Shown one piece after another: positions 2,257 through 15,937 of a stretch of 15,937 bases of DNA. The stretch comes from a virus (taxonomy: Duplodnaviria; Heunggongvirae; Uroviricota; Caudoviricetes). The DNA lies in the IMG/VR virus record IMGVR_UViG_2737471841_000003. One strand, 5' to 3'. The translations under genes and the position numbers were made by a program. Under the pieces are notes generated by a model that was not told the DNA's origin, made no database searches, and saw only the letters and a program-made list of their open reading frames with translations. Each line of letters starts with the position of its first letter. Position 1 is the stretch's first letter.

Positions 2257-2261
2257 AAAAT

Positions 2262-2297: not shown

Positions 2298-2313
2298 ATG
2301 CCTGTATGTTTGC

Positions 2314-2463: not shown

Positions 2464-2539
2464 GGTGTACCTCCTATTGCACTGGCTACGCCAGGTAGCC
2501 ACAGCTACCCCGCAGGGTGTTACCGCCGTTAACGTCCAT

Positions 2540-2568
2540 ATTATAGCCAATATCTGGCGTTTAGACAA
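2540..2568 (-). promoter_or_regulatory. sigma70-like promoter for the 49-aa gene (-35 TTGTCT, 17-bp spacer, -10 TATAAT)
   Basis: Reverse complement of 2540-2568 reads TTGTCT-N17-TATAAT. The implied start site is about 70 nt upstream of the ATG at 2463. Confidence 0.35.
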
Positions 2569-2900
2569 TAGCAGTCTTTTTGATGCCGTGATGGTGGTAT
2601 ATAAGCCTGTGGCATCAATTAATAGGTTTTTCTGATTGTCTTGCAGATCAGCTTTATCAGGTATCTGTTTATGTTCCGGTACGATGAGACCGTGCGGGCA
2701 TCTCTTAGTTTTGGCTTATAACTTATGTGCCTGGTAAGAGAGCAGAACCACCATCAATCGCCTGTTTATCGCCTTGGTTAGGGCAGGGCCGCATCAAGCC
2801 CAGTGATCTGTAAGGTACTCCACACCATATACGCTTCTTTTCTCGTAGAGGTCGCGTTAACCTCTGGGGTGTGTTTCCATTCGACAGGATAGCATGATCA

Positions 2901-3728
2901 TTATGGGTATACTACTCCTGCACTTTCCATTGCACTATCTACATAGGCTTTAGTTCTGGGAGACATGGGGGCATTACCCTTAGCTGCGTCACCCACATTC
3001 GACTCTTTAGACTTATCGTTCACAATGCCCTTATTCTTGGGTGGAGATTTCTTCGGATCAGAGAAAATTGTGGCTTCCACCATTTTAGTTTTGAAGGTCC
3101 TGAACTCCTGGAGAGTGATATCAAAGAGAATGGCCTCACCTTCGGTGTTCTTTTTGCTGGCACGCATCGAGGTAATGATAAAATTCTCATAGACATCTTC
3201 TTCTGTGACCAACGAGATTAATTGGCGTCTATCTATACATTCATTAACCGCCGCCAATGCCGCCGCCATCCTTCCACTTTCGCGGGGGGCTTCTGGATCT
3301 GTGTTACGGTCAATGTAGTTTGCCTTCCGGTACATCTGGGGAGAGGTAGTCACCCTGGCGGTGAAAGATATTTTGGTATCTTTGATCACGGCATGATCTG
3401 AAATAGTCACACCATCTTCTACAGCAAAATCTGTTTTCTCTATATCTCTGGTGACTTCATAATCGGTAATGCAGTCGAAGATAAGGCAAATGTTATCGGT
3501 GTAGTTAAATTCCTGTAAGCGATAATCCTGACCATGACCATTCAGGCCGGAAATTATCATGGTGAATTGTGCATCAGCCTGAGCTTTTTCTGCATTTAAG
3601 AATTTACCTTCATGCTCAACGCCCAATTCATCCTGGCTATAAATCCTTTCCCCAGTCTTCCAGTCCCTGCGACCTTCTGAACCATAGGAAACATCTTCGT
3701 TAATAACTACTTTATTGCTATTCATCAT
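2901..3728 (-). CDS. 275-aa acidic hypothetical protein; no domain recognised (could be a minor virion protein or an accessory gene)
   Basis: ATGATG start at 3728-3723 preceded by AAGGGGA. It begins 15 nt after the stop of the 53-aa HTH ORF, so the two are probably co-transcribed. TAA stop at 2903-2901. I see no Walker, HNH or PD-(D/E)xK motif. Confidence 0.7.
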   Translation of the reverse strand: MMNSNKVVINEDVSYGSEGRRDWKTGERIYSQDELGVEHEGKFLNAEKAQADAQFTMIISGLNGHGQDYRLQEFNYTDNICLIFDCITDYEVTRDIEKTDFAVEDGVTISDHAVIKDTKISFTARVTTSPQMYRKANYIDRNTDPEAPRESGRMAAALAAVNECIDRRQLISLVTEEDVYENFIITSMRASKKNTEGEAILFDITLQEFRTFKTKMVEATIFSDPKKSPPKNKGIVNDKSKESNVGDAAKGNAPMSPRTKAYVDSAMESAGVVYP

Positions 3729-3743
3729 TTTCCCCTTGCCTTG

Positions 3744-3905
3744 TCAGATAATGCCATAGTGTTTCAATGTTTCAATCAACCCATTACGTTTCAGGAAAGT
3801 TCGCACAGCCTCACGCGTAACTCCGGCTTTTCTGGCTATTTCCGAAAGGTTGATAAAATCAGTGTCTGTGTTTTCAATAACAACACGTTTGTTAATCAAT
3901 TTCAT
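3744..3905 (-). CDS. 53-aa helix-turn-helix DNA-binding protein (MKLINKRVVIENTDTDFINLSEIARKAGVTREAVRTFLKRNGLIETLKHYGII); absent from the ORF track (below its length cutoff)
   Basis: Translated codon by codon from the reverse strand: ATG at 3905-3903, SD AAGGAG (complement of 3914-3919) at 8-nt spacing, TGA at 3746-3744. The segment LSEIARKAGVTREAVRTFL is a typical HTH (excisionase/MerR-like or Nu1-like). Confidence 0.5.
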   Translation of the reverse strand: MKLINKRVVIENTDTDFINLSEIARKAGVTREAVRTFLKRNGLIETLKHYGII

Positions 3906-3940
3906 AAAATAAGCTCCTTGAAGAATACAGGTAAAAGGAT

Positions 3941-3978
3941 AATAAAAAAGGGAGGGAGGTTGTTAGCCTCTCCTCCCT
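3941..3978 (-). terminator. Intrinsic terminator or stabilising hairpin just downstream of the major capsid gene
   Basis: On the - strand: GGGAGGAGAGG, loop CTAACAA, CCTCCCTCCC, then CTTTTTTATT. It begins about 20 nt after the capsid stop at 3996. Phages commonly place a strong hairpin after the capsid gene. Confidence 0.5.
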
Positions 3979-3995
3979 TGTATTTAGCTATCAGA

Positions 3996-5024
3996 TTATG
4001 CCGCTTCGGTTAATTTCAGTTTAAAAATGAAATCTGGCCTACTATTGAGGTACGCGGTATGGGATTCACAGAAGATTTTACGCTGGGTGTTAGTCTGTTC
4101 TAACCAGTAAATTTCCCGTGCAGGTGCACCGCTCATTGCATAGCGTAAATTACGGGTTGCAGGTCCCACAATTTCACTCATGCAAGGCAGGAAAGTATTC
4201 TTGCGAACTGCCGGAACAGCGTAAGCATGACCTTCTTTCATGAATGAATCGTCACAGCTGATAATAGTGATAGCAATGCCATCTACCTGGAATACAGAAT
4301 AACCCGGCAGATGTTCACCATCAAATACCATGCTGGATTTAACAGTACCATTACCGAACATAATAGCGCGGCGAATGTCTTTATCATCGTAACGCAGGCG
4401 ATCATAAGTTGAGCTATCTACGAAGAGATAAACCCCACCAAATGAGTGAACTAAACCGCCCATTTGTTTTTTGACCAGTTTTACAATTCGTTCAAGCTCA
4501 CGGATGAGATCGCCACCCAGGTTTAACTCATCTTCGGACTGTTTAAACTTGCCACCCAGTTCCTCGACAATATCGATATCCCCACCTTTGAAATGAATCA
4601 CGTTATCAAAGAGAGCGCGCTGCATAGCTTTTTCTCTTGCAATTTCAAGGCGTTGTTTCATGCTCAACAGGTGTTCACCCGTCACATCGTCCAAGGTTTT
4701 CTCACGATTGGTGCCTGGTTTGCGGTGACCCTGGAAAGCGCTGGCGCTGATCTGAGATTCCAGTGCATAAGCAGGAACACGCAGCATTAAAGTTTGTGCT
4801 GTACCTGTTACGATGCTGCCATAATCACCCAGATCATAATCGCTTACAACTGGGGCAGCTGATTGGGTTGCTGCAATAACGTTATCGAACACGAAGGAGG
4901 TTGTACTGGTGTAAATTTTTTCATTAAACAAGCCCAGAGAAGTGATCAGCTGGTTTTCTAATGTTGGTTCTAGCATCACACATTCTGTGACATCTTTATA
5001 ATCGAATAATTGAAAGTCTGCCAT
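3996..5024 (-). CDS. Major capsid protein, lambda gpE family (342 aa)
   Basis: Size matches lambda E (341 aa). Recalled local similarity to lambda gpE: KNTFLP vs KNFLP, SGAPAREIYW vs GDPAREFTM, and a similar central hydrophobic block. ATG at 5024. It sits directly downstream of a small decoration-like gene, as in lambda D-E. Confidence 0.7.
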   Translation of the reverse strand: MADFQLFDYKDVTECVMLEPTLENQLITSLGLFNEKIYTSTTSFVFDNVIAATQSAAPVVSDYDLGDYGSIVTGTAQTLMLRVPAYALESQISASAFQGHRKPGTNREKTLDDVTGEHLLSMKQRLEIAREKAMQRALFDNVIHFKGGDIDIVEELGGKFKQSEDELNLGGDLIRELERIVKLVKKQMGGLVHSFGGVYLFVDSSTYDRLRYDDKDIRRAIMFGNGTVKSSMVFDGEHLPGYSVFQVDGIAITIISCDDSFMKEGHAYAVPAVRKNTFLPCMSEIVGPATRNLRYAMSGAPAREIYWLEQTNTQRKIFCESHTAYLNSRPDFIFKLKLTEAA

Positions 5025-5036
5025 TCCATCCCCCTA

Positions 5037-5360
5037 TTAAAGTGCTAATTTGACATGTTCGTTTAACAGGTGGGGAATAGCTTCCGGAGGATTAATTCCG
5101 AAAGAATTTAATACCACACCGATCCCGTGAACAATAACTAATTTGTCGCCTTTTTTAGCTGGTTCCAATACCACAAATAAAGCAGGCATCTCTTCTTCGT
5201 CAGCGTCGAATTTTGCCCCTTCTGCGGTAATAACATCGCCAGGGAATAAATCCTCAGTTAATGCCGTTTTCAGTTCCAGAGCTTTTTGTTCAAACTCGGG
5301 GTCCATGGAATAGGCGACCACATCTGCACGTGTTTTACGCGGCTTATCAGAAAATAACAT
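5037..5360 (-). CDS. Putative head decoration protein (107 aa), lambda gpD-like by position and size
   Basis: ATG at 5360 with GAGGT SD. Its stop is 12 nt upstream of the capsid gene start. 107 aa vs 110 aa for lambda D. Sequence similarity to gpD was not confidently recognised; the call is positional. Confidence 0.45.
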   Translation of the reverse strand: MLFSDKPRKTRADVVAYSMDPEFEQKALELKTALTEDLFPGDVITAEGAKFDADEEEMPALFVVLEPAKKGDKLVIVHGIGVVLNSFGINPPEAIPHLLNEHVKLAL

Positions 5361-5429
5361 CGTGTTACCTCATCTCTATCGCATTTATCAGATTTAATGT
5401 ATTAGAATCTCACCTCTGATACATTAATA

Positions 5430-5460
5430 AAGGCCACCCCTTCAGGTTGGGTAGCCTTGA
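5430..5460 (-). terminator. Terminator-like hairpin upstream of the head genes (- strand)
   Basis: On the - strand: GGCTACCC, loop AACCTGAA, GGGTGGCC (8-bp stem with one G.U), then TTTATTAATG. It lies about 70 nt upstream of the start at 5360. Confidence 0.3.
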
Positions 5461-5913
5461 TAATGGACCAGGTGCATAATCCAGAGCACGAAGATTATTC
5501 TCTGGTCATTCGTCTGTCGAGGTGATTTAAATGTGAAGTGAATCAGGCATTACTGCCTCAATCCATATAATAAAACCTCCCCCTAGCCCAGAGAGAGGCC
5601 TTATTATTTACTAGGATATATGAATGACTGATTTCAGTCTGGCAGATTCGCTAATAGCTCACCGCCTGGCACTTATTATCGCCTTCATTAGATCACCACA
5701 AATAATGTCGGCTATGGGAGAATGTAACCCGCTCCCAGTTGTTCACAGTACAACCAGACTTTTTACTGGAGAAAGTAATATCCACTCGTATAAATATTAC
5801 CTTCTTTAAAGGCCCTCGCTACGGTGGAAAGAAGAGGTAGCACAGAACAACCAGCAAAGACCTTTAAAGAAGTACGCCCAGCATCAAGGGGAAAATGATG
5901 AAAAAGCTCTGAG

Positions 5914-5942
5914 CTTCCGGGCGTTGACAAGTACAGGAGAAC
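5914..5942 (+). promoter_or_regulatory. Near-consensus sigma70 promoter (TTGACA, 17-bp spacer, TATTAT; TG immediately upstream of the -10)
   Basis: TTGACA at 5914-5919, TATTAT at 5937-5942, TG at 5935-5936. Confidence 0.45.
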
Positions 5943-6018
5943 ACTGTATTATCCAATAATCGGTGAGATGTAGGTGAGATAACTCGAAAGGTGTAACCAT
6001 GAAAGTATCTACATCATA

Positions 6019-6038
6019 GTATTATGATAACATAATAC
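6019..6038. promoter_or_regulatory. Inverted repeat (GTATTATG ATAA CATAATAC), candidate operator or RNA hairpin in the leader
   Basis: 8-bp arms separated by 4 bp, downstream of the 5914 promoter and followed 16 nt later by a T7 run (6055-6061). Confidence 0.3.
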
Positions 6039-6095
6039 TTGCCGTTTGTCAATCCTTTTTTCAAAGAAATTTAAAAAATTTTTCTCTCCGCCTCT

Positions 6096-6142
6096 TTTCT
6101 CGATCAAACAATTGAAAAAACTATTGACTGAGGCGTTAGAAT
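6096..6142 (+). promoter_or_regulatory. Promoter for the homing-endonuclease-like gene: 13-bp upstream box TTTCTCGATCAAA, then -35 TTGAAA and -10 TAGAAT (19-bp spacer)
   Basis: The box at 6096-6108 is identical to 14751-14763, which sits in the same position relative to the consensus promoter at 14768. -35 at 6112-6117, -10 at 6137-6142. The spacer is longer than optimal. Confidence 0.35.
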
Positions 6143-6182
6143 GTGATACGGTTCACCACAAATGGTAAGTGGAGGGTGCGAT

Positions 6183-7013
6183 ATGAAAGAGAGAAAACAG
6201 GCTTTAGCTAAAACAACAGAGCAGTTCATCGCTGAGGCAAGGAAAGTGCATGGTGATAAGTACGATTATTCGAAAGTTGAATACGTGAATATGCGCACTG
6301 AGGTTTGTATCATTTGCCCAATACATGGGGAGTTCACACAAAGACCAGAGAACCATCTTCGCGGTAACAGAGGAAAGGGGTGTGGTTGCCCTATTTGTAA
6401 ACCTTGGAGAAAACGCCTGACACGAGAAGAGTTCGAAAGGAGGGTAAAAGAGGTACACGGTGATAACCTGGATGTTTCACAGTTCGATTATAAAAACGTT
6501 CACACAGAGGGTATTGTTAAGTGCAACAGGTGCGGCATGACGTTCTCGATACAGGCACAAGCGATTATCCTTAGAAATTCTGATGGTAGTCTTCTAGGCG
6601 GTTGCCCTGTGTGTGACCATCTACACAGAGACGCGGAATATGTTTATTTGGCGCTGGATGATCCACACTTTCCGACGAGATTTAAGATCGGGGTAACAAG
6701 CAACCCACAGGACAGATTGATAACTTTGAAGTGTAGAACACCTTTCAGGGTGTTTATGAAATGTTGTTTCAAAGTAGGAAAAGTGAAGGCGCGGAGGCTG
6801 GAGTACTTCCTGCACAACTTCTACAACTTCTGCAATTGTGGTTATGAATCAAGAAAGGACTTTCAGGGTGCAACAGAGTGGTTTTATTACCTGCAAAGTA
6901 AAGTAGGGGTGAAGAGGGTGCTCAAGATGTTAGTAAAACTGGTAAACGCCAGGAGCTACAACCGCCACTACATAAAGCATAAAAAGCCAACGTTTAAACG
7001 CACTTTGTTTTAA
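6183..7013 (+). CDS. Homing-endonuclease-like protein: two N-terminal Zn-ribbon repeats plus a C-terminal T5orf172 (GIY-YIG-like) domain
   Basis: Start moved to ATG 6183 (GGAGGG SD at 6171-6176); the track start at 6162 lacks an SD. Two tandem repeats of HGDKYDYSKVEY...C.ICP.HGEF.Q.P..HL.G.GC..C, then YVYLALDDPHFPTRFKIGVTSNPQDRL...EYFLH...ATEWFYY, which matches the T5orf172 pattern as I remember it. Confidence 0.65.
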   Translation: MKERKQALAKTTEQFIAEARKVHGDKYDYSKVEYVNMRTEVCIICPIHGEFTQRPENHLRGNRGKGCGCPICKPWRKRLTREEFERRVKEVHGDNLDVSQFDYKNVHTEGIVKCNRCGMTFSIQAQAIILRNSDGSLLGGCPVCDHLHRDAEYVYLALDDPHFPTRFKIGVTSNPQDRLITLKCRTPFRVFMKCCFKVGKVKARRLEYFLHNFYNFCNCGYESRKDFQGATEWFYYLQSKVGVKRVLKMLVKLVNARSYNRHYIKHKKPTFKRTLF

Positions 7014-7064
7014 TGGTGGGCCAGGGATGGTTATTGACTCTCAATCATTATTTTAAAAAAGATG

Positions 7065-7093
7065 TTGACTACCACACGGTAAAAGTGTATAAA
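7065..7093 (+). promoter_or_regulatory. Near-consensus sigma70 promoter (TTGACT, 17-bp spacer, TATAAA)
   Basis: TTGACT at 7065-7070, TATAAA at 7088-7093, about 40 nt upstream of the 7131 ORF. Confidence 0.5.
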
Positions 7094-7130
7094 GGGCCTA
7101 AAGAAAGAGAAGTGGCAAAGGAGGTAAAAA

Positions 7131-7250
7131 ATGTTCAGGCTGATGGTGAATGTCCTGGCGATAATCTTCGGGTTAGTGCTCTTTCTGATGGCCTGGAGCG
7201 TTATCTTTGAAGTAGTGGATATAGTGATGGCGATGTTAATGATTAAATAA
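7131..7250 (+). CDS. 39-aa hydrophobic single-TM peptide (MFRLMVNVLAIIFGLVLFLMAWSVIFEVVDIVMAMLMIK); not in the ORF track
   Basis: ATG at 7131 preceded by AGGAGG (7119-7124) at 6-nt spacing and by the 7065 promoter. TAA at 7248-7250. The overlapping track ORF 7013..7210 in another frame has no SD and covers the promoter. Confidence 0.4.
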   Translation: MFRLMVNVLAIIFGLVLFLMAWSVIFEVVDIVMAMLMIK

Positions 7251-7266
7251 CGCAGGAGGCAAGATC

Positions 7267-7329
7267 ATGAAACATTGGGAAGTGATTGCACTGTTCATCA
7301 TAATGTTTGTGATGTGCATCGAGTTTTAA
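7267..7329 (+). CDS. 20-aa hydrophobic peptide (MKHWEVIALFIIMFVMCIEF); not in the ORF track
   Basis: ATG at 7267 preceded by AGGAGG (7254-7259) at 7-nt spacing. TAA at 7327-7329. It is very short, so this is tentative. Confidence 0.3.
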   Translation: MKHWEVIALFIIMFVMCIEF

Positions 7330-7364
7330 CATTAGTCGATCAATATATTGAAGAGGTGACTACT

Positions 7365-7916
7365 ATGAAAACTATCAAAACTATCGCCGCTGTGGTCCTG
7401 GCAATGTTTGTGGGCAATGCTAATGCCGCCCTGGTGATCACAGACCAAGACATTGAAGACCACATGGAGACAATGGAGGTTTACTACCAGGCTGAGGATA
7501 TTGATTGTGAGATCTGGAGCAAGATGTTCACGAAAGGGGTAATTGAAGGTAACGACAAGTTCAGGCACGGTATCCGTGTTCACAAAGACCTCACAATTGT
7601 TGCCATGAAAGCTAAATCGGAGTTCTACAACAAATACGCAGGGGAGGTTGTCAAATCTGGCGCAAGTAAAGGATACAGCAAGGAGAGAGTAGATCAGATT
7701 AGAGATGTTTACATCGGTGCTTACATCGGTGCGGCCGAGATGAAATCTCGCGTAAACAGCAAGTTCGGCAAAGCCGCTGATCTTAACTCTGTAGCTAAAA
7801 AGAGAGCAGAAGCCGATCATTGGTTCAATTTCTGTGTGAAAGTGAAAGAAGAATATCCGGTCGTATTGTTCAACGAGTGGTTAGCTATAGCACAGCTGGC
7901 AGAAGATGATTTTTAA
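7365..7916 (+). CDS. Secreted (periplasmic) protein with Sec signal peptide, 183 aa
   Basis: Start moved to ATG 7365 (GAGGTG SD at 7353-7358). N-terminus MKTIKTIAAVVLAMFVGNANA/AL has n-, h- and c-regions with a predicted cleavage after ANA. There is no Cys at +1, so it is not a lipoprotein. The track start at 7275 lacks an SD. Confidence 0.6.
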   Translation: MKTIKTIAAVVLAMFVGNANAALVITDQDIEDHMETMEVYYQAEDIDCEIWSKMFTKGVIEGNDKFRHGIRVHKDLTIVAMKAKSEFYNKYAGEVVKSGASKGYSKERVDQIRDVYIGAYIGAAEMKSRVNSKFGKAADLNSVAKKRAEADHWFNFCVKVKEEYPVVLFNEWLAIAQLAEDDF

Positions 7917-7946
7917 CCGGGGACGATCATCGACTCAAAAAAGTGA

Positions 7947-7975
7947 TTGACAACGGAGGTGAGATCCGGTATAGT
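7947..7975 (+). promoter_or_regulatory. Near-consensus sigma70 promoter (TTGACA, 17-bp spacer, TATAGT)
   Basis: TTGACA at 7947-7952, TATAGT at 7970-7975, upstream of the 8011 gene. Confidence 0.5.
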
Positions 7976-8010
7976 TCACCACATAGAGAAGAGATACGGA
8001 GGGCAGCAAG

Positions 8011-8391
8011 ATGAAAACTTTCAATTGGGTTAAACCACAGATGTTACGTCGCGCCAATAACCACGGTGAGGGTGTACGCCACCACAACGACGCACCTGCA
8101 CCGGACATGAAGAAGGCACGCAAAGTGATCAATCTTCGTCAGGACGCGGCTATCGCTCGCAACCTGAAAGCAGAAGCGAAAAACCGTAACCCGTTGGAGG
8201 CAATTCTTGTTGCCCTGGTCAATGACCATGCAGCTCATTTCCGTCATTTCAATGGCATCAACCAGTACCAGATGGCAGAAGCCAACCGTAAAGAAGAAGA
8301 GCGGATCCTGGCTGGACTGGTACACGTTGAGATTGAACCTGAACCGGAACCGGAGGAAATTCATTGGGACCTCTGGAAAATGGCAGCTTAG
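8011..8391 (+). CDS. Hypothetical early protein (126 aa)
   Basis: ATG at 8011 with GGAGGG SD at 7998-8003. Contains a PEPEPE stretch. Function unknown. Confidence 0.6.
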   Translation: MKTFNWVKPQMLRRANNHGEGVRHHNDAPAPDMKKARKVINLRQDAAIARNLKAEAKNRNPLEAILVALVNDHAAHFRHFNGINQYQMAEANRKEEERILAGLVHVEIEPEPEPEEIHWDLWKMAA

Positions 8392-8452
8392 TCCACAGAG
8401 TGGATTTCACAGAGTGAAACCTGATAACAGGCAGCTTGAGGAGGCTTGAATC

Positions 8453-8917
8453 ATGAAAATTTTCAGTATTGAACATTACGAAGACAAAATTGAAGAGCTG
8501 GAAAGACTGGCTGAGATTGCAGATTATCGCGCGGGGTACGCCGCTGGACTTGCGGAAGTTCGGGAAAAAATACTTAAAAAATTCCACAGCTTGTACTATG
8601 TCCTGGCGGTTGCTGAGCAAGAACAAGATGAGGAGCTGTACGAGTACACGTCGTGCCGTATCCTGGAAATGGCGGGTGTGTACGGCATAATCAAGGCGGG
8701 AGAGGTGATCTCAGACGAAGAGATTGCGAAGAGACTTCGTAAACGCATCGAAAACGCATACTTTGAAGCGATCTACTATACGAAAAAAAGCACGGAGCTG
8801 TATAAACGCATAACTGCGGCGACGAAAGTTGTCACTCAGCTACAGAAAGTAAAAATCTTCAAACTGAAAGCGGCGTTGGCTATCGGTAAAATGTTTTTCC
8901 CACATCGTTTCAATTGA
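8453..8917 (+). CDS. Hypothetical early protein (154 aa)
   Basis: ATG at 8453 with GAGGAGG SD. Function unknown. Confidence 0.65.
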   Translation: MKIFSIEHYEDKIEELERLAEIADYRAGYAAGLAEVREKILKKFHSLYYVLAVAEQEQDEELYEYTSCRILEMAGVYGIIKAGEVISDEEIAKRLRKRIENAYFEAIYYTKKSTELYKRITAATKVVTQLQKVKIFKLKAALAIGKMFFPHRFN

Positions 8918-8945
8918 TTAAATAATAAACAGAGGAGACTGTAAA

Positions 8946-9314
8946 ATGAGTTACGAAAACTGCTGTTTCTGTGTGGAAGATGTGCCGCCAGTCATTCTGG
9001 AGCGTCACGGTGTGAAAACGTATCTGCCGATGATTCTGATGTTCGAGCATTTCCTCGATCATGGTGATGACGGTTTTTATGTCGGTTATAGTGAGGACGA
9101 TTTCCCTCCTGACTTGCTGAAAGAGTTGGAAGAAAAAGGCATCATTGAAGTATTTGATCAAACTGACGTGGATAATGGTGTGTGGGTAAGGGTTAAAAAA
9201 GAGATTCACATTGAACGTCTGCAACTTGCGGCAGAAGTCCAGGGCCTTGAGATTCTCGACATGAGCGACTACCTCAAACAACTGGACGAAGCATACAAGG
9301 CGCACGATTTATAG
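8946..9314 (+). CDS. Hypothetical acidic early protein (122 aa)
   Basis: ATG at 8946 with AGAGGAG SD. Tightly spaced after the preceding gene. D/E-rich. Confidence 0.65.
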   Translation: MSYENCCFCVEDVPPVILERHGVKTYLPMILMFEHFLDHGDDGFYVGYSEDDFPPDLLKELEEKGIIEVFDQTDVDNGVWVRVKKEIHIERLQLAAEVQGLEILDMSDYLKQLDEAYKAHDL

Positions 9315-9327
9315 GGGAGACACACAG

Positions 9328-9642
9328 ATGAATAAAGACGTGATTGAACTGCTGGAACAACTGAACAAGGCCGCTGAGTATATCCTGGCCGATGTGAAGG
9401 TCCTGGATGGTCACTTGTTGCTGGCGAGCAAGTCAGCCACACAGGAAGGAAGGGACAGGGCTGTCGAGCTATACGTTCAGGATGCTGCACATCTTATAAA
9501 CAAATGGTTGCCTGATGTGGGTGTCGAGGTGACAAACTACGCAGAAGCAACGGCGGCGCATATGGTGCTGATGCATCTGGCAATTGATAGTTACCGTAGT
9601 AACATGTTAGCAATGCTGGACTTCATGAAGGCTAAAAATTAA
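9328..9642 (+). CDS. Hypothetical early protein (104 aa)
   Basis: ATG at 9328 with GGGGAG SD, 14 nt after the preceding stop. Confidence 0.6.
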   Translation: MNKDVIELLEQLNKAAEYILADVKVLDGHLLLASKSATQEGRDRAVELYVQDAAHLINKWLPDVGVEVTNYAEATAAHMVLMHLAIDSYRSNMLAMLDFMKAKN

Positions 9643-9704
9643 TCGTACTCGATCAATAGTTCAATTTTACTTATGAATTGTGGAGAGCATAAGAGGTTCC
9701 AACA

Positions 9705-10226
9705 ATGAAAACTGAACTCAAACATGAAATTCTAAACGCTTTTAACAACCGTATCGAGGCCATAGTGGATGGTCAACCTGGCGGGATGTTCTTTGTGGAG
9801 GAAGCCATAGAGCTGGCTAAAGCGGAGGAAGCAGTAGAGAGAATACTCAACATCCCACACAGTGATCAATGTCTGGTAGATAGGTATCTATACGGCTTCA
9901 TGCGACTGGTCCGGCATTATTGCGAGGTGCCTGTGGACCATCATTTTATCAGTATGATCTACGCCGATGCTTCTGACTTCTTCTACAGGCTAGATCACAG
10001 AATAGACGAAATGATTGTTGTGTTACTGGCGGGATCTGATGACGAAAGGTTGTTAGACGTAGAACCTGATGAACTGGTGAAAAAACTTATTGAGCGTGTT
10101 TATCGGGAAATGGAGGCAGACGTAGAGGCAGCGGGTGAAGATGGAAGAATGCGGCAGAAGCTGGAGGCCGCGTATAAGGCCAGGCCGAAGGATGATGATG
10201 ACGATACGGAAGGAATCCCATTCTGA
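9705..10226 (+). CDS. Acidic early protein (173 aa) with an SSB-like C-terminal tail (...KDDDDDTEGIPF)
   Basis: ATG at 9705 with AAGAGG SD. Strongly acidic overall. The C-terminal codons were checked directly: GAC GAT ACG GAA GGA ATC CCA TTC TGA. Confidence 0.65.
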   Translation: MKTELKHEILNAFNNRIEAIVDGQPGGMFFVEEAIELAKAEEAVERILNIPHSDQCLVDRYLYGFMRLVRHYCEVPVDHHFISMIYADASDFFYRLDHRIDEMIVVLLAGSDDERLLDVEPDELVKKLIERVYREMEADVEAAGEDGRMRQKLEAAYKARPKDDDDDTEGIPF

Positions 10227-10277
10227 GCTATTGGGGCCGTCACTGGCCCCGCTTACCAACTAATCGGAGAGCATAAG

Positions 10278-10553
10278 ATGAAACTCAAACTTATCGAAAG
10301 TCAGCTGAACATGTTCTTTAAGATGGCAAGTGTGATCATTGTGGACGGTGAACAATTCGCGGGTCCAGTGCCACACAGTAGCATCGTTTTAGATATCAAC
10401 AGAGAGGCCCTTAAATGCGTTGTGGAGGCCGTATTTAATCAGGATGTAAAAGTGTATAGGCTTATGGAGTTTGAGCTACAGGAGCGCGATTTACGCATCA
10501 TAGAGCGACATTTGAAGGCTGAGCAAGCCGCAGAAGAGTTGAACCTGGATTAA
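10278..10553 (+). CDS. Hypothetical early protein (91 aa)
   Basis: ATG at 10278 with GGAGAG SD. Confidence 0.6.
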   Translation: MKLKLIESQLNMFFKMASVIIVDGEQFAGPVPHSSIVLDINREALKCVVEAVFNQDVKVYRLMEFELQERDLRIIERHLKAEQAAEELNLD

Positions 10554-10662
10554 GGGGGTGTATACCCCGAACATTGTGAGAGGTGTGAGATGGCTAAACA
10601 AATACTTTCAATTGTTCCACTGTGGAAACTGAATCATAAATTCGTAAAAAAATGGTAAACCA

Positions 10663-11013
10663 GTGCTGTTTACATACCTTGATGCGCTGGTCTTCGGTTA
10701 CATAGCACGAGCTAACTATGGGGGCAAGTGGTTCAACTTCGTAATGAAGAATGCAATCTACGACCTCTATACAAGCGAGAAGGAGATAACGCACAGCGTT
10801 GAAAAACTGGTTATGTTAAGACTTATCAAAATAATGCCGGGTGAAAGTTTGCCTAACTGCCACATGGTGGCGCAAGTCACTCATAAGGAATTGGAAGACA
10901 CGATCAATAGGTATATCGAGCGTGAAAGAATGTCTTGCGCGATGATCGACCTTGATGAAGAGAGGAGGAAACAATTCCAGGGTAATGATGAATGGGAAGA
11001 TTGTCCTTTTTAA
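10663..11013 (+). CDS. Hypothetical protein (116 aa from a GTG start; start uncertain), C-terminus ...NDEWEDCPF
   Basis: The ORF is open from 10648. The first start codon is GTG at 10663 with no clear SD; an alternative ATG at 10744 has a weak SD. It is preceded by a 22-codon uORF (10590-10658, SD GAGAGGTG) that ends in an A7 run. Confidence 0.45.
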   Translation: MLFTYLDALVFGYIARANYGGKWFNFVMKNAIYDLYTSEKEITHSVEKLVMLRLIKIMPGESLPNCHMVAQVTHKELEDTINRYIERERMSCAMIDLDEERRKQFQGNDEWEDCPF

Positions 11014-11030
11014 TGTAGGGGGGTGGCAAA

Positions 11031-12008
11031 ATGACTACAGAAGTGATGATCCAGATTTTCGAATCTGATTTAAATAATGATGGTAACTTAGTCCCGGTTG
11101 TTAACGCCCGTGAGTTTTACGAAGCGCTTGGGATGCGAAAAGATTATGGAAATTGGATCAGGTGGCATCTTCGGAAATTTGAAAAAAATCGGGACTTTAT
11201 TACTTTTATCGATAAGTCGGGAGAACATCCGCGTCATAACTATTTTATCACTTTGGACACTGCAAAGCACATATGCAGGGTGAGCCAACGCCAGGAAGGT
11301 GAGCAGTTGCTACAGTATTTAATTAAAGTTGAAAAAAGATACCGTTTAGTACTGGACCCACAACCACAGATTCCTGTTTACACACAGTCACAGATTCCTG
11401 TTTACACACAGTCACAGATTCCTGTTTACACACAGACGGAACCTGAACCGTTGCCAGGAACACCGGAACATTTTGCCCGTGCATTTACGGAGGCTTACCA
11501 ACAGATATACGGGGCAACAGATCAGCAGCCAGTCATTGAGCACAATACGGAACCTGTGGTTCCTTGTTGGGGAGCTGGGTCTAATCAGAGCCTCGAGGTC
11601 CAGGATGTGCAGGAAGTACGACCGCCAGCACCTGTGCTGGGGTATTACAATCCTTGCCCGGACAACAAAATCAACATGAAAGGCTTAAAAGAATACCTGA
11701 GCAATGAACGCCTGATCAAGTACCTCATTAAAAAATTCAACATTGAAAATGAGATTTATGATTATGGTTACATAAATGTGAAAGGGAAAGCTGAGTCGGA
11801 GATTGTGTACGATAAACGTAAAACGCTGGCGATCTTACATGCCGCTTACGCTTTGAGTACTAGAGTAAACGCCACACAGAGAGAGTTTATGGGGATAGTA
11901 TTCACGATGTACAGGGTGTTAAGAGACACACATTATGATAAGGACATGTACGATACAGCTTACACTCTTCTTGAAGAGGATATAAACAAATTGTATAAAA
12001 TTGATTGA
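11031..12008 (+). CDS. Antirepressor-like protein with N-terminal AntA-type domain (325 aa)
   Basis: ATG at 11031 with a G-rich SD. The N-terminus (VVNAREFYEALGMRKDYGNWIRWHLRKFEKNRDFITF...YFITLDTAKHI) matches the AntA/AntB antirepressor N-terminal pattern as I remember it. Contains a triplicated QIPVYTQS repeat. Confidence 0.65.
   Translation: MTTEVMIQIFESDLNNDGNLVPVVNAREFYEALGMRKDYGNWIRWHLRKFEKNRDFITFIDKSGEHPRHNYFITLDTAKHICRVSQRQEGEQLLQYLIKVEKRYRLVLDPQPQIPVYTQSQIPVYTQSQIPVYTQTEPEPLPGTPEHFARAFTEAYQQIYGATDQQPVIEHNTEPVVPCWGAGSNQSLEVQDVQEVRPPAPVLGYYNPCPDNKINMKGLKEYLSNERLIKYLIKKFNIENEIYDYGYINVKGKAESEIVYDKRKTLAILHAAYALSTRVNATQREFMGIVFTMYRVLRDTHYDKDMYDTAYTLLEEDINKLYKID
11367..11438 (+). repeat. 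Three tandem 24-bp direct repeats (CAGATTCCTGTTTACACACAGTCA) inside the antirepressor-like gene
   Basis: Units at 11367-11390, 11391-11414 and 11415-11438; the third differs in its last bases. In frame, encoding QIPVYTQS x3. Confidence 0.9.
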
Positions 12009-12086
12009 GCATCTATACTCGATCACAACTCAACAATAAAGACGGAGAGTCGAGAGCATGACTCTCCTCAACCCCGGAGGCCCAAC

Positions 12087-12362
12087 ATGTATTACTACGA
12101 TTGCAAAGACCCGATTCTGGCTGAACGTAACCGCCTGGCTAATGAGATCGCCCAACAGGCAAAAGAGAAAAAAGCCCAACAGCGTATGGAGCTTGGAAAA
12201 GAGATTTACAGACTCCACACAGACGGCTACACAATGGAATGTATAGCCAAAAAGCTGGGAATGTCTGAACCAACAGCCTACAGACTGCAACGGGCATATC
12301 TGAAAGCTAACCCGCACCTCAAAGTGTTCTCGGGGCGTGTTGCGGCACGGGGTCGTAGTTAA
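12087..12362 (+). CDS. Small HTH DNA-binding protein (91 aa), resolvase/sigma-region-4-like HTH
   Basis: ATG at 12087 with GGAGG SD (12076-12080). The segment GYTMECIAKKLGMSEPTAYRLQRAY is HTH-like. Its stop lies 10 nt before the first operator-like palindrome. Confidence 0.6.
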   Translation: MYYYDCKDPILAERNRLANEIAQQAKEKKAQQRMELGKEIYRLHTDGYTMECIAKKLGMSEPTAYRLQRAYLKANPHLKVFSGRVAARGRS

Positions 12363-12371
12363 CACACACTA

Positions 12372-12408
12372 GGGACAAAATGTCCTACCTACCCGGGACA
12401 AAATGTCC
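12372..12408. promoter_or_regulatory. Two copies of a 14-bp palindromic operator-like site, GGGACAAAATGTCC, 23 bp centre to centre
   Basis: Exact copies at 12372-12385 and 12395-12408. Each is a dyad (GGACA-N3-TGTCC). Confidence 0.5.
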
Positions 12409-12409
12409 A

Positions 12410-12419
12410 CCCCCCCCCC
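12410..12419. repeat. Homopolymeric C10 tract
   Basis: Ten consecutive C at 12410-12419, directly after the second operator copy. Confidence 0.9.
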
Positions 12420-12449
12420 GGCAATATGTGATTCCCGGAAGACACATGT

Positions 12450-12486
12450 TTGTACAAATTGTAGTCACTGATTGTACAGATTGTAG
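12450..12486. repeat. Two direct repeats TTGTACA(A/G)ATTGTAG spaced 22 bp
   Basis: 12450-12464 and 12472-12486. Each has a TGTACA palindromic core. Confidence 0.6.
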
Positions 12487-12490
12487 CACT

Positions 12491-12573
12491 ATACCGGTTT
12501 TCCGATAGAGCTATACCGGATTTCCGGTAGAGGTATACCGCTTTTCCGGTATAGGTATACCGGATTTCCGGTA
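12491..12573. repeat. Iteron array: four 17-bp dyad-symmetric sites (ATACCGG-N-TTTCCGGTA) at exactly 22-bp spacing; putative replication origin or partition/regulator binding array
   Basis: Sites at 12491-12507, 12513-12529, 12535-12551 and 12557-12573. Arms TACCGGA and TCCGGTA are reverse complements. Followed by an AT-rich stretch (12574-12622), the same layout as the lambda origin (four dyad iterons plus an AT-rich region). Confidence 0.6.
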
Positions 12574-12622
12574 ACTATTAGATCAATCTATTACATCAAG
12601 AAAAAAGATCACTTATTATATT

Positions 12623-12645
12623 AAGGGCCTTGCCCTTTTTGTTGT
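12623..12645 (+). terminator. Terminator-like hairpin (AAGGGC, loop CTT, GCCCTT, then TTTGTTG)
   Basis: 6-bp GC-rich stem with a 3-nt loop, then a T-run, at the end of the AT-rich region. It would terminate read-through from the 12087 gene across the iterons. Confidence 0.35.
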
Positions 12646-13845
12646 GGGATTGATTGGTGGGATTGATCTTACTGATAGTATAATACTCCACCAATCAACC
12701 CTAAGTTGTGGGAGAGTACGGAGCAGACTGCGACTACAGAGCAGGCTGAGAAGTACTCAATGGGTGTAAGGGATTAAGGGACCCACACACATTTCCACAC
12801 ACAGAGTAAAGCCAGAGGCTTTATGAAGTGTAAGAGTAATGCCTAAAGAGTCGAAGCACACTTTAGGCTATATTGTGTGGGAGGTATCTGTACATAGTAC
12901 AGAGTACTCCCCATTATGTGGGGGCAATCCTGCCCGTAAGGGCAGCTCATGTGATTCGCAGCCGTAAGCTGAACTGCGACGAAGAAGGCTGCAAAGGTTC
13001 TCGGCCCGGTTACAATTACGCAACAATTTTATAATCTATCGTTAACCTATACCACTATCACAATTTCTATAGTTGAGTCCTACTATCCCCTACACCATAA
13101 AATCAATTTTAAGCCACACTCAGCCTACGGCTTCACGGTAAAACGTGTTTTAACCCACATAATGGCCCCTGTAGTGAGCTAAATGGTATACACCGCTATA
13201 ATTGGGTTACTTATGAGATAACCTCGTTAGAATCGATTCTAGAGCGTTTTAGAGCTTGAAATCCATCCTGCAAACTGCAAGATGATGATTCTATCGGGGA
13301 AGAATTTTTTTCCTTCCCGTAAGTCGTACCGTAGAGCAGATTTGCTTTACGAGCTTTCTCACACCTCAGGCCTCTGGCCTTCATGGAGTATCGGAGATAC
13401 GACTCACCGCATATACTCTGTTTTCAGTGCTACCCTGATCGCATCCGACCCTTTTCAGAGGCACTTTTAACCGCATTCTGGCACGCTACAACAGCAAGAA
13501 ATAGGCTGATTCTACTGATTTTACCTTACAATACAGGTACATAGCAGAAGGGCAGGAATATACTGTGAGAATGGTTGCTAGACCGGGCCTTCTTCTCTCT
13601 GTGTGTGCATTCTGAAACCGTTATGTAGTCGAGTATATAACGACTGGTCAGACCAGTGCAGGGCTGAAAATGATGATCGGTCACCACAATTATGGGCAAA
13701 TTACTGTACATTCATACAGTAGTTATACATAAAGAATATGCATCGATTGCTCTTTAGGCACAGATGTTATAATGTAACAATTAATTTAGTTTACCTCGGT
13801 AATCACTGTGTGGACATGTCACGCAACTAAACTAAATCCGAAGAG

Positions 13846-13854
13846 TTATCCACA
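13846..13854 (+). promoter_or_regulatory. Consensus DnaA box TTATCCACA
   Basis: Exact 9-mer match to the R-type DnaA box, single copy. Nearby are an 8-bp palindrome GACATGTC (13812-13819) and a 10-bp inverted repeat, ATTTAGTTTA (13783-13792) with TAAACTAAAT (13827-13836). Confidence 0.3.
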
Positions 13855-14687
13855 GATTGGGGGTAAATCATCAACATAGTCTGTAGCCTCTGACAGAGAG
13901 CAAAAAGAAAGGCCTTTTATGTGATCAATATCACGTTTCTGGGGTAGTTCTGGAGGCTTAGGTGCGGGGAAGTAGTGCGTACTGACACCAGAGGCCGCAT
14001 AAAACAAGGGGATTTAACATAATGGATCTTGTATACACCACACCTCACCACGTTGAAATCTGATCTTACTTTGAGGCTATCTGCCAACAGAATCCGCGTA
14101 CATGCACCATAACCTGTATGTGGGATGCAATAATAAAGGCCCTGGCGGCCCACAGGCCGCATGAATACTGGGCTTGTCATAGATATGGGCCTGTATCGCT
14201 ATGTAGATGCGGGATGACCTGTAAGGGTGTGGCAGGTGGCAGGGGCTGGAGGGCACGGTACAGCACAGCTAATGGGTGAGGCCCCAGATATTTGAGAATC
14301 ACTCTCACCTGAGAATAATTATCAGTAACTCCTGCCTAGTACCACCCCTGTAGGTAAGGTTGATCATTGCCCACATTGCTGGTATACTTTATCTGTGGGA
14401 AAGTAACGCCGTTACTTCCGCGAACGCTGTGCGTGATGTGTGGGAGAATGTGCCTGCGTAATAAAAAAATTGAAAATTACTCATCTGTCAACATTTCAAT
14501 GACGTATGTCAATCATTTATGCTATGTGTTTACTTTATAATCAATCACTTACGAATTTAATGAAATAAATGCATTTAAATAGGGTGAAACTCAAATCTAA
14601 CCCCTGAAACTGTGTTGATAAAGGGGCGTGAAGCCCGGCGTAGGTAACTCGTTACCCGCCAGTGTTATTGATAATTCTCATTTACGT

Positions 14688-14716
14688 TTGACAATGCAAT
14701 CCCAATGGTGTATAAT
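14688..14716 (+). promoter_or_regulatory. Perfect consensus sigma70 promoter (TTGACA, 17-bp spacer, TATAAT)
   Basis: TTGACA at 14688-14693 and TATAAT at 14711-14716, in an AT-rich upstream context. Confidence 0.6.
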
Positions 14717-14750
14717 AGACTATAAGGGGTAAGATAGAATCTTTACTCAA

Positions 14751-14796
14751 TTTCTCGATCAAAGGTATTGACAAATGAGAGTAAAGGTGTTATACT
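14751..14796 (+). promoter_or_regulatory. Second tandem near-consensus promoter (13-bp box TTTCTCGATCAAA, then TTGACA, 17-bp spacer, TATACT)
   Basis: Box at 14751-14763, -35 at 14768-14773, -10 at 14791-14796. It lies 80 bp downstream of the 14688 promoter. Confidence 0.6.
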
Positions 14797-14885
14797 TATC
14801 TATAACAGCAAAACTCTACTTTAGAGCCGCTCCATGAGGAGCAAAGCTCCGAAGTGTGATCATAGTCGGTAAATCCCTTACTTAC

Positions 14886-14918
14886 CGGGGGCACTTCTCC
14901 AGCCCCCTCTCTTTTTAA
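14886..14918 (+). terminator. Intrinsic terminator in the leader (GGGGGC, 9-nt loop, GCCCCC, then TCTCTTTTTAA)
   Basis: Stem 14887-14892 pairs with 14902-14907, followed by a T-run at 14908-14916. It is about 110 nt downstream of the predicted start site and about 50 nt upstream of the 14969 start. Confidence 0.5.
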
Positions 14919-14968
14919 CGGTATGGTAAGAAAACATTCTTTATAAGTGATAAAAGAGGTAGTTAATC

Positions 14969-15208
14969 ATGGCTAAACCTTATTCAAATAGCTTTAACAT
15001 TGAAACAATGAGAGCTGATCAGATTGTAGACATGGTGAGGAACCAGGAACTTTCAGAGGAGACGCTCTACATGTTCATCTATCGCACGAAGAACCGTTAC
15101 CCGGAGGTAGATAAGGCATGGAAGGAGATCAAGCGCCTCAAAAAAGAGTTCAAGAAAGAAGCTGAATTGTACTGGCGCAAACGGTTTTTCTATAACTACA
15201 AAGGCTAA
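14969..15208 (+). CDS. Hypothetical basic protein (79 aa)
   Basis: ATG at 14969 with AGAGGT SD. K/R-rich C-terminal half. Confidence 0.6.
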   Translation: MAKPYSNSFNIETMRADQIVDMVRNQELSEETLYMFIYRTKNRYPEVDKAWKEIKRLKKEFKKEAELYWRKRFFYNYKG

Positions 15209-15240
15209 TCGGTAGAGATAACAAAGATAAAGGTGGAAAC

Positions 15241-15756
15241 ATGAGAGCAGTTTTTGATCAGCTGCCGTGGTGGCTTGATTTTCTCGAAGAACTGGACGGA
15301 AAGAAATTTAAACTGACAAAAGGTGAAGCGAGAGCATTTGCTTGTATTCTTACGTATGCCGCGACATGTGGTAAGATTTTCCCGTCACTCCACACAATAG
15401 CCCTTCATATGGGTTTACGGAGTGAAAAACGAGCGCCGACACAGGCGCATAAAGCGATCAAAGGCCTGGAGGAAAAAGGCCTTATACGTGTTAGCCGTCG
15501 CGCTGGGTGTGGAAACCATTATGAACTAGTTTACACAGCAGATCAACTCTTTGAGATGACAAAGCAACAGAATCCAGACTTGTTCAAAGGCTATGAAGAC
15601 ACGTTCGGAGAAGAGGATAGGGAGAGAGAACAGGCAGGGGATAAACCGAAGAAACATGATACAAAACAGGGGGTTACGTGTCAACATGACAACGGTCAAC
15701 CGGATGATATTCACATAGAAGCGTGTGATCTGGATGCTACTGACATACCATTTTAA
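15241..15756 (+). CDS. HTH_36-type winged-helix DNA-binding protein (phage replication/regulatory type), 171 aa, with SSB-like C-terminus (...DLDATDIPF)
   Basis: ATG at 15241 with AAGGTGG SD. The segment LTKGEARAFACILTYAATCGKIFPSLHTIALHMGLRSEKRAPTQAHKAIKGLEEKGLIRVSRR matches the HTH_36 pattern seen in the N-terminal domains of phage replication proteins. The terminal codons GAC ATA CCA TTT TAA were checked. Confidence 0.7.
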   Translation: MRAVFDQLPWWLDFLEELDGKKFKLTKGEARAFACILTYAATCGKIFPSLHTIALHMGLRSEKRAPTQAHKAIKGLEEKGLIRVSRRAGCGNHYELVYTADQLFEMTKQQNPDLFKGYEDTFGEEDREREQAGDKPKKHDTKQGVTCQHDNGQPDDIHIEACDLDATDIPF

Positions 15757-15824
15757 CATAAATCACAGCTCCGCATGAAGCTACGCTGAATAAATCACAC
15801 TGTATTAACAATGAGGTAACAAAA

Positions 15825-15937
15825 ATGAGTTTAGTTGAAAGATTGAAAAAAATCCTCGCCACAGAAGAGGTAGAGGAAGAGGAAGAAGTAGAGAAGGCGG
15901 CGGATCCTAAGCCTGAGAAGGCTGTGAATACCCAGAG
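15825..15937 (+). CDS. 5' end of a downstream gene (partial; MSLVERLKKILATEEVEEEEEVEKAADPKPEKAVNTQ...)
   Basis: ATG at 15825 with GAGGT SD (15813-15817). The ORF is open to the window end. Confidence 0.5.
   Translation, partial: MSLVERLKKILATEEVEEEEEVEKAADPKPEKAVNTQ

What the first reader, a model, noticed from the sequence alone, without database searches (positions are those of the whole stretch)
10590..10665. 22-codon uORF ending in an A7 run, then a GTG-initiated gene in the +1 frame
A small ORF with a good SD (MAKQILSIVPLWKLNHKFVKKW) ends 5 nt before the GTG start of the 116-aa gene, and the downstream frame is already open across an A7 tract (10646-10652). This could be translational coupling, or a slippage site that fuses the two frames.
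Basis: seen in the sequence. Interest (0 to 1): 0.25.

Follow-up and report, generated by a model that had tools for sequence, protein, structure and literature searches.

The report
One gene split by a frameshift
The small "upstream ORF" and the GTG-initiated 116-codon gene are the two halves of one conserved ~141-codon gene of unknown function, broken in this isolate by a frameshift at a run of seven A's; this is an ordinary disrupted gene, and nothing supports programmed frameshifting.

Summary
The 22-codon ORF (10590-10658) has a good Shine-Dalgarno. The A7 run is at 10646-10652. The GTG ORF (10663-11013) lies in the +1 frame.

The two ORFs are not a uORF plus a gene. Every intact homologue found (141, 145 and 147 aa, from related elements) is one continuous protein. 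Its first 21 residues match the "uORF" peptide (16/21, E 2e-9). The rest matches the +1 frame from 10648 onward.

At the A-run the window is 2 nt shorter than the homologues. They read ACAAAAGAAGG or ACGGAAAAAGG there, with no A7 and no frameshift.

No stimulatory RNA structure, SD-like stimulator or slow codon accompanies the run. A7 is also below the run length at which E. coli RNA polymerase slips appreciably.

An independent re-assembly reproduces A7, and no other comparable gene in the window is frame-broken. The window's copy carries excess amino-acid changes. The closest relative lacks the gene entirely. A genuine inactivating frameshift in a dispensable accessory gene is therefore most likely, and a homopolymer read error is second.

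Low interest. In passing, the window is a complete circular ~15.9 kb capsid-encoding element with no phage-database match.

The parts
10578..10585 (+). Shine-Dalgarno (GAGAGGTG) of the ancestral full-length gene
   Evidence: Read. Homologues have AAGGGGGTGTGAAATG at the same place. In relative L006 this same SD is fused directly to the AntA start codon.
10590..10658 (+). 5' fragment of the split gene (the '22-codon uORF'). Codons 1-18 match the homologues' N-terminus closely (15/18 identical to P0002). Codons 19-21 span the variable stretch at the frameshift site, and the final TGG and the TAA stop are out-of-frame read-through.
   Evidence: 16/21 identity to residues 1-21 of P0002, E 2e-9. 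tblastn HSP 10590-10673 in frame 3. Alignment A1.
10646..10652 (+). A7 run, the frameshift site. The window is 2 nt shorter here than the intact homologues; A6 or A9 would restore the frame.
   Evidence: DNA alignment A2: window GTA--AAAAAATGG against ACAAAAGAAGG or ACGGAAAAAGG. Frame analysis.
10648..11013 (+). 3' fragment of the split gene in the +1 frame. Homology to intact proteins begins at 10648. The annotated 116-aa ORF (WP_047671630.1 / KHI93881.1) starts at the GTG 10663, which is an internal Val codon (GTA) in the homologues.
   Evidence: tblastn HSP 10648-11010, covering residues 21-141 of P0002 at 83% identity. Alignments. Accessions.
10586..11022 (+). The whole gene as a dispensable cassette. 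It is absent from the closest relative, with junctions at a shared GGTG in the two SD regions.
   Evidence: L006 (GCA_038016195.1) reads ...GAGAGGTGGCAGATATG(AntA). The window has GAGAGGTG|TGAGATG...gene...GGGGGGTG|GCAAAATG(AntA).

Best explanation
The region 10590-11013 is one ancestral gene of about 141 codons. It is an accessory gene of unknown function in the rightward operon of small genes of a phage-like element, lying between a 91-aa gene and the AntA antirepressor gene. In this isolate a frameshift at a mononucleotide run has broken it: the run is now A7, which is net -2 nt relative to the homologues and equivalent to a +1 nt change from A6.

Ribosomes starting at the conserved SD and ATG (10590) read 21 codons largely matching the native N-terminus, then TGG, and stop at TAA 10656. 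The remaining 121 homologous codons lie in the +1 frame. The 'GTG start' at 10663 is simply the first start-type codon after the +1-frame TAA at 10645, which is why annotation pipelines call a 116-aa protein.

Shown here: the homology of both halves to single intact proteins, the position of the indel, the absence of the run in homologues, and reproducibility of A7 in a second assembly. Inferred: the lesion is a real slipped-strand mutation rather than a read error, and it inactivates or strongly reduces the gene. At most, trace full-length protein would come from unprogrammed slippage, and some N-terminally truncated protein from termination-reinitiation at the GTG 4 nt after the stop.
For: Alignment A1 shows the N-terminus MAK(H/Q)(I/V)L(S/T)IV(P/S)LWKLN conserved in P0002 and P0003 and matching the small ORF. 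P0004 carries a 4-residue insertion (MTAKRCKHHFSIVPLWKLN) but keeps the SIVPLWKLN core.
2. DNA alignment A2 places a 2-nt gap in the window exactly at the A-run. The homologues carry ACAAAAGAAGG or ACGGAAAAAGG there, with no homopolymer.
3. tblastn of 26 relatives' proteins against the window found only this gene split between two frames, switching at 10648-10673. Other A7 runs inside ORFs (8783, 11182) are in frame.
4. An independent Logan assembly of SRR2239585 has the identical A7 and 116-aa ORF.
5. The family is under purifying selection, with omega 0.09-0.14 among intact copies. The window's terminal branch has dN about 0.09 and dS 0.21-0.43, giving omega 0.2-0.4. It carries 15-19 unique residue changes, against 0-4 in each flanking 91-aa gene.
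6. The closest relative, 97.5% identical in the upstream gene, lacks the gene altogether, so it is dispensable.
7. There is no significant RNA structure 3' of the run (z 0.15) and no promoter or terminator between the halves.
Against: Raw reads could not be inspected, so a homopolymer miscall shared by both assemblies is not excluded. The 3' fragment has no further stops or indels, and its omega is still below 1, so the lesion is recent or some constraint persists. The Val codon is GTG only in the window (GTA in homologues), which would allow reinitiation. The relaxed-selection signal rests on four sequences in a mosaic element; another gene (154 aa) also shows uneven branch lengths.
Confidence: 0.65

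Rival explanations
1. Sequencing error: the real DNA has A6 or A9, the gene is intact, and the split is a homopolymer miscall.
For: The lesion sits exactly in a homopolymer, the classic site of indel miscalls. Both halves are otherwise well preserved with no secondary stops. The two assemblies probably derive from the same read set, so they are not independent evidence on read-level errors.
Against: No other gene in the 15.9 kb element is frame-broken. Two other A7 runs in ORFs, and several G6 or T7 runs, read through correctly. Two different assemblers agree. The window copy carries an excess of amino-acid replacements that an error would not explain.
Confidence: 0.2
2. Utilised recoding: a +1 or -2 ribosomal shift on GUA AAA AAA UGG, or transcriptional slippage (A7 to A6 or A9 in mRNA), produces a set fraction of full-length protein alongside the 22-aa peptide. 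A related version is a phase-variable switch through DNA slippage.
For: A-runs read by tRNA-Lys are intrinsically shift-prone. Re-pairing AAA 10647-49 to 10648-50 is perfect and leads straight into the homologous frame. Both halves and the SD are preserved.
Against: No homologue has the run or the frame change. The 15-billion-protein collection holds no other 116-aa-type split copy. There is no slow or stop codon after the re-pairable AAA, no SD-like stimulator upstream and no downstream structure. The in-phase heptamer A_AAA_AAA favours -1, which leads into a dead-end 38-aa product. E. coli RNA polymerase needs at least 7 T and 'even more' A to slip, and showed no deletion slippage on the poly(A) runs tested (PMC6260861). 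Selection against runs becomes evident at about 9 nt (PMC1088944).
Confidence: 0.05
3. A working two-cistron arrangement: the 22-aa peptide and a GTG-initiated 116-aa protein are made by termination-reinitiation coupling, and the truncated protein (with or without the peptide) still functions.
For: The stop and the GTG are 4 nt apart. The window alone has GTG where homologues have GTA. The low-confidence model puts the H-H-H-beta-beta core at residues 30-95, downstream of the GTG. Omega on the window branch is still below 1.
Against: Homologues never show two ORFs. The lost N-terminal motif SIVPLWKLN is among the better conserved stretches. There is no real SD before the GTG. GTA to GTG is a single synonymous transition that needs no selective explanation. 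The gene is dispensable in L006.
Confidence: 0.08

Closest known systems
Frameshift-split genes or pseudogenes at mononucleotide runs (slipped-strand indels; 'fs-genes' as catalogued by GeneTack, PMC3711429)
   Same: Two adjacent ORFs in different frames each match consecutive parts of one intact orthologue. The switch maps to a homopolymer indel. Annotation reports only the longer 3' ORF, with a fortuitous alternative start codon.
   Different: Nothing essential differs. The family is an ORFan (one 50%-identity cluster in 1.84 billion representatives), so the functional consequence cannot be named.
Programmed +1 ribosomal frameshifting, prfB (RF2) type
   Same: The change needed is +1, and the zero-frame stop lies shortly after the shift region.
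   Different: prfB has a conserved CUU UGA shift site with the stop codon in the A site, and an SD-like stimulator 3 nt upstream, conserved across bacteria (established knowledge; review PMC5009743). Here the stop is two codons past the only re-pairable codon, no stimulator is present, and the site is absent from homologues.
Transcriptional slippage sites (Thermus thermophilus dnaX A9; IS-element A/T runs; Citrobacter tssM)
   Same: A run of A's in the sense strand at the junction of two frames. A6 or A9 transcripts would encode the full protein.
   Different: Known utilised sites are typically 8-9 nt or longer and are conserved among relatives (PMC1088944). This run is 7 nt, is unique to one isolate, and E. 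coli RNA polymerase slips poorly on A-runs of this length (PMC6260861).
Translationally coupled gene pairs (stop and start overlapping or a few nt apart)
   Same: A 4-nt gap between TAA and GTG within one operon.
   Different: In coupled pairs both ORFs are independently conserved genes. Here the two are one gene in every relative.

Membership tests
Frameshift-split gene (pseudogene or sequencing artefact) | Both ORFs are homologous to consecutive, non-overlapping parts of a single intact orthologue | tested here: met
   The small ORF matches residues 1-21 and the +1 frame matches residues 21-141 of P0002.
Frameshift-split gene (pseudogene or sequencing artefact) | The frame change is explained by an indel (length not a multiple of 3) relative to orthologous DNA | tested here: met
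   a 2-nt gap in the window at the A-run.
Frameshift-split gene (pseudogene or sequencing artefact) | The lesion is present in the DNA, not only in one assembly | tested here: inconclusive
   The Logan re-assembly of SRR2239585 is identical, but it probably uses the same read set. Reads could not be inspected.
Frameshift-split gene (pseudogene or sequencing artefact) | Relaxed purifying selection on the broken copy | tested here: inconclusive
   Omega on the window branch is 0.2-0.4, against 0.05-0.12 on other branches, with 15-19 unique residue changes against 0-4 in the flanking genes. Only four sequences are available and the element is mosaic.
Programmed +1 ribosomal frameshift (prfB-like) | Shift site and frame change conserved among orthologues | tested here: not met
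   all homologues are single-frame and lack the run.
Programmed +1 ribosomal frameshift (prfB-like) | Re-pairable P-site codon followed by a slow or stop codon in the A site, with an upstream SD-like stimulator | tested here: not met
   the sequence is GUA AAA AAA UGG UAA. The codon after the re-pairable AAA is AAA. UGG to GGU re-pairing at the stop is poor. No GGAGG-like sequence lies in CATAAATTCGTA.
Programmed +1 ribosomal frameshift (prfB-like) | Trans-frame protein actually produced | not testable with these tools
   Needs mass spectrometry, ribosome profiling or reporters.
Programmed transcriptional slippage | Homopolymer long enough for efficient slippage by the host RNA polymerase (about 8-9 nt or more) | tested here: not met
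   The run is 7 A. Thresholds are from PMC1088944 and PMC6260861.
Programmed transcriptional slippage | Run preserved among homologues, with ORF organisation requiring it | tested here: not met
Translationally coupled gene pair / regulatory uORF | Upstream ORF is a separate conserved cistron in relatives | tested here: not met
   relatives call one gene of 141-147 aa at this position.
Translationally coupled gene pair / regulatory uORF | Stop and restart codons within a few nucleotides | tested here: met
   TAA at 10656-58 and GTG at 10663, a 4-nt gap.

The most novel reading that the evidence does not exclude
The A7 run is a newly arisen, utilised switch. One version is a contingency (phase-variable) tract in which DNA slippage between A6, A7 and A9 turns this accessory gene on and off in the element's population. 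The other is a low-efficiency +1/-2 or transcriptional recoding site that sets a small dose of full-length protein, with the GTA-to-GTG change adding a reinitiation route to a truncated form.
Probability: 0.06. Interest if true: 0.35.

Novelty: already known. Interest (0 to 1): 0.1.

Why it matters
The main value is correcting the annotation. WP_047671630.1 / KHI93881.1 (116 aa, GTG start) is the 3' fragment of a frameshifted ~141-aa gene, and the small ORF is its N-terminus, not a regulatory uORF. The case also shows how a uORF next to a gene with an alternative start codon at a homopolymer can mimic a recoding signal, and that a handful of orthologues settles the matter. The gene's function is unknown and it is dispensable in a close relative, so the biological consequence is probably small. 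The more interesting object is the host element itself (see Noticed in passing).

Tried and rejected
- Megablast and blastn of the locus, and of 6.1 kb of the window, against 50,697 phage records and 5,426 complete E. coli genomes gave no match.
- tblastn of the repaired protein against phages and plasmids gave no match.
- The search for related loci with the family alignment in viral, metagenome and genome collections gave pattern hits only, none confirmed.
- The exhaustive profile search of 1.84 billion representatives returned only the family's own cluster, so no remote homologues and no function.
- Pfam, PADLOC and PDB profile searches found nothing credible. phrog_22534 (unknown function) hit only at E 0.03-0.05.
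- The AlphaFold model from the 4-sequence alignment had pLDDT 42, so no fold search was attempted.
The HTH neighbour is encoded identically only in the same isolate.
- A literature search for the assembly accession found nothing, so the sequencing platform is unknown.
- -1 frameshifting on the in-phase A_AAA_AAA heptamer was considered and rejected as a route to the fusion. It leads into the third frame and stops after 17 codons.

Full report
**Observation**

- An ATG ORF at 10590-10658 encodes MAKQILSIVPLWKLNHKFVKKW. It is preceded by GAGAGGTG (10578-10585), with GAGG ending 6 nt before the ATG.
- The A7 run is at 10646-10652.
- A GTG ORF of 116 codons runs 10663-11013 in the +1 frame relative to the small ORF.
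- Correction 1: four nucleotides (ACCA), not five, separate the TAA from the GTG.
- Correction 2: the downstream frame is not open across the whole run. It contains TAA at 10645-10647, which uses the first two A's, and opens at 10648.
- No usable SD precedes the GTG.

**What it is**

Deleting one A in silico joins the frames into a 140-aa protein. I searched with this against 5.8 billion protein clusters.
- The search returned the window's own 116-aa product, P0001. This is KHI93881.1 / WP_047671630.1, 'hypothetical protein, Escherichia coli', on a contig of 15,937 bp, which is the window itself.
- It also returned three clusters of full-length proteins: P0002 (141 aa), P0003 (147 aa) and P0004 (145 aa), covering 99-100% of the query at 71-82% identity.
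- In the alignment, P0002 and P0003 start MAK(H/Q)(I/V)L(S/T)IV(P/S)LWKLNR... and continue ...TKEGTPV(L/M/V)FTYLDALVFGY... P0004 has a 4-residue N-terminal insertion but keeps the SIVPLWKLN core.
- The small ORF is therefore their N-terminus (16/21 identities to P0002, E 2e-9). The +1 frame is homologous from 10648 (KNGKPVLFTYLD...).
- tblastn of the relatives' proteins against the window shows the same split: residues 1-28 in one frame (10590-10673) and residues 21-141 in the other (10648-11010).

I fetched the relatives' loci, L001-L004, and aligned the DNA.
- The window is 2 nt shorter exactly at the run: window AAATTCGTA--AAAAAATGGTAAACCAGTG against L001 AAATTGGGGACAAAAGAAGGCACTCCGGTA.
- None of the homologues has a homopolymer there. 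They read ACAAAAGAAGG or ACGGAAAAAGG.
- All of them read through in one frame.
- A9 would restore a protein of the homologues' length, and A6 one residue shorter.
- The GTG 'start' is an internal Val codon, GTA, in the homologues.

**Programmed or accidental?**

Several further points argue against programmed recoding.
- Ribosomal +1: the only perfectly re-pairable step (AAA 10647-49 to 10648-50) is followed by an ordinary AAA codon, not a stop or a hungry codon.
- At the stop (UGG UAA), re-pairing to GGU is poor.
- No SD-like stimulator lies upstream.
- The in-phase heptamer A_AAA_AAA favours -1, which leads into the third frame and stops after 17 codons.
- The 100 nt from the run onward fold no better than shuffles (z 0.15).
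- Transcriptional slippage: Wons et al. report that E. coli RNA polymerase needs at least 7 T 'and even more adenine residues', and saw no deletion slippage on the poly(A) runs they tested (PMC6260861).
- Baranov et al. find that selection against runs becomes evident at about 9 nt, and that utilised sites are conserved among relatives (PMC1088944).
- The protein search found no second split copy, and the exhaustive profile search found nothing beyond the family's own cluster.

**Real mutation or read error?**

The evidence favours a real mutation.
- Of the 13 window genes that relatives' proteins matched, this is the only one split between frames.
- Two other A7 runs inside ORFs (8783-8789 and 11182-11188) are in frame.
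- An independent Logan assembly of run SRR2239585 carries the identical A7 and the 116-aa ORF.
- Nei-Gojobori estimates show strong purifying selection among intact copies (omega 0.09-0.14).
- The window's terminal branch has dN about 0.09 against dS 0.21-0.43 (omega 0.2-0.4). It carries 15-19 unique residue changes out of 140, against 0-4 out of 91 in each of the two flanking genes.
- The closest relative lacks the gene. L006 (E. coli GCA_038016195.1) is 97.5% identical across 10266-10591, yet the split gene's SD region is joined to the AntA start codon at a shared GGTG. The gene is therefore dispensable.

Three caveats apply. The two assemblies probably share one read set. Four sequences in a mosaic element give weak statistics, and the 154-aa gene also has uneven branches. 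The 3' fragment has no secondary lesions. I put a genuine frameshift at about 0.65, a homopolymer miscall at about 0.2, and the functional readings together at just over 0.1.

**Likely expression (inferred)**

Translation from the conserved SD and ATG ends after 22 codons. Some ribosomes may reinitiate at the GTG 4 nt downstream, giving a protein that lacks the conserved N-terminal ~27 residues. Unprogrammed slippage might restore the frame in a small fraction of products. No promoter-like or terminator-like site on the coding strand separates the halves.

**Function of the intact protein**

Unknown.
- No credible Pfam, PADLOC or PDB match. Only a marginal match to phrog_22534, itself of unknown function.
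- The family forms a single 50%-identity cluster among 1.84 billion representatives.
- A low-confidence AlphaFold model (pLDDT 42) shows a helix-helix-helix-strand-strand pattern at residues 30-95. This is reminiscent of a winged helix, but too uncertain to use.

**Context**

The gene lies in a tightly packed rightward operon of small genes.
- Upstream: ORFs of 154, 122, 104, 173 and 91 aa.
- Downstream: an AntA-family antirepressor (11031-12008) and an HTH_23 protein (12087-12362).

**Comparison with known kinds**

It works like, and is, an ordinary frameshift-split gene. It fails the tested defining features of four alternatives:
- prfB-type +1 frameshifting;
- utilised transcriptional slippage sites;
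- coupled gene pairs;
- regulatory uORFs.

**Verdict**

The novelty class is 'already known'. Interest is 0.1.

Noticed in passing
window 1-15937 (whole): The window is a complete, circularly assembling ~15.9 kb element (JUDJ01000049.1, E. coli GCA_000798295.1). An independent Logan contig (SRR2239585_139, 15,926 bp) is a circular permutation that joins window 15937 directly to window 1. It encodes a tape-measure-like protein (118-2256), a Dit-like protein (2901-3728, minus strand), a major capsid protein (3996-5024, minus strand), a T5orf172 endonuclease, AntA, an HTH protein and a replication-initiator-like protein (15241-15756). No recognisable portal, terminase or other virion genes were found. 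It has no DNA or capsid-protein match in 50,697 phage records or 5,426 complete E. coli genomes. Relatives' contigs cluster at 13.8-15.3 kb in E. coli, Shigella and metagenomes. This could be an undescribed class of small capsid-encoding extrachromosomal elements, perhaps satellites.
   Followed up: partly
L012 = NZ_CP035869.1 (pE275a_13, 13,697 bp circular E. coli plasmid); also CP134895.1, NZ_CP020521.1, CP148565.1: Four 'non-mobilizable' E. coli plasmids of 13.2-13.7 kb are distant relatives of the window. L012 shares the tape-measure-like (30% identity over 710 aa), Dit-like (45%), major capsid (29%), HTH and rep-like genes; the other three were matched by the capsid protein only. L012 also has an ORF-poor stretch of ~2 kb.
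   Followed up: partly
window 15825-15937 joined to 1-106: A 72-aa ORF (MSLVERLKKILATEEVEEEEEVEK...) spans the linearisation point just upstream of the tape-measure-like gene. It is invisible in the linear window and was called only in the permuted Logan contig.
   Followed up: yes
window 10586-11022 versus L006 2528-2566: The split gene behaves as a present-or-absent cassette bounded by GGTG in two SD regions. L006 also lacks the 173-aa gene (9705-10226). L002 has the gene but no AntA. L002 and L004 carry a resolvase where the window has a T5orf172 endonuclease. This is gene-by-gene mosaicism with junctions at ribosome-binding sites.
   Followed up: partly
window 11365-11435: A perfect 24-nt x 3 tandem repeat inside the AntA-family gene encodes QIPVYTQS three times. 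The Logan assembly breaks here (at window 11394) and is 11 nt shorter overall, so copy number may be uncertain or variable.
   Followed up: partly
window 12400-14950: About 2.5 kb with almost no ORF of 60 aa or more. It starts with a C10 run (12410-12419) and two arrays of 22-nt tandem repeats (12450-12490, and 12489-12573 with ~3.9 copies of the near-palindromic CTATACCGGATTTCCGGTAGAG), just downstream of the HTH gene. These look like iterons or an origin or operator region. No Rfam family and no tRNA was found. Parts are conserved in relatives.
   Followed up: no
P0039 (88 aa, Logan contig of 1,525 bp, P0004 cluster): Another copy of this gene family is frame-broken at a different place (...EKEITQYCKAGYGGAYQNNAG instead of ...EKEITHSIVKLVMVGLIKIMPG) in a short, probably low-coverage contig. 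Frame breaks in this gene are therefore not tied to one site.
   Followed up: no
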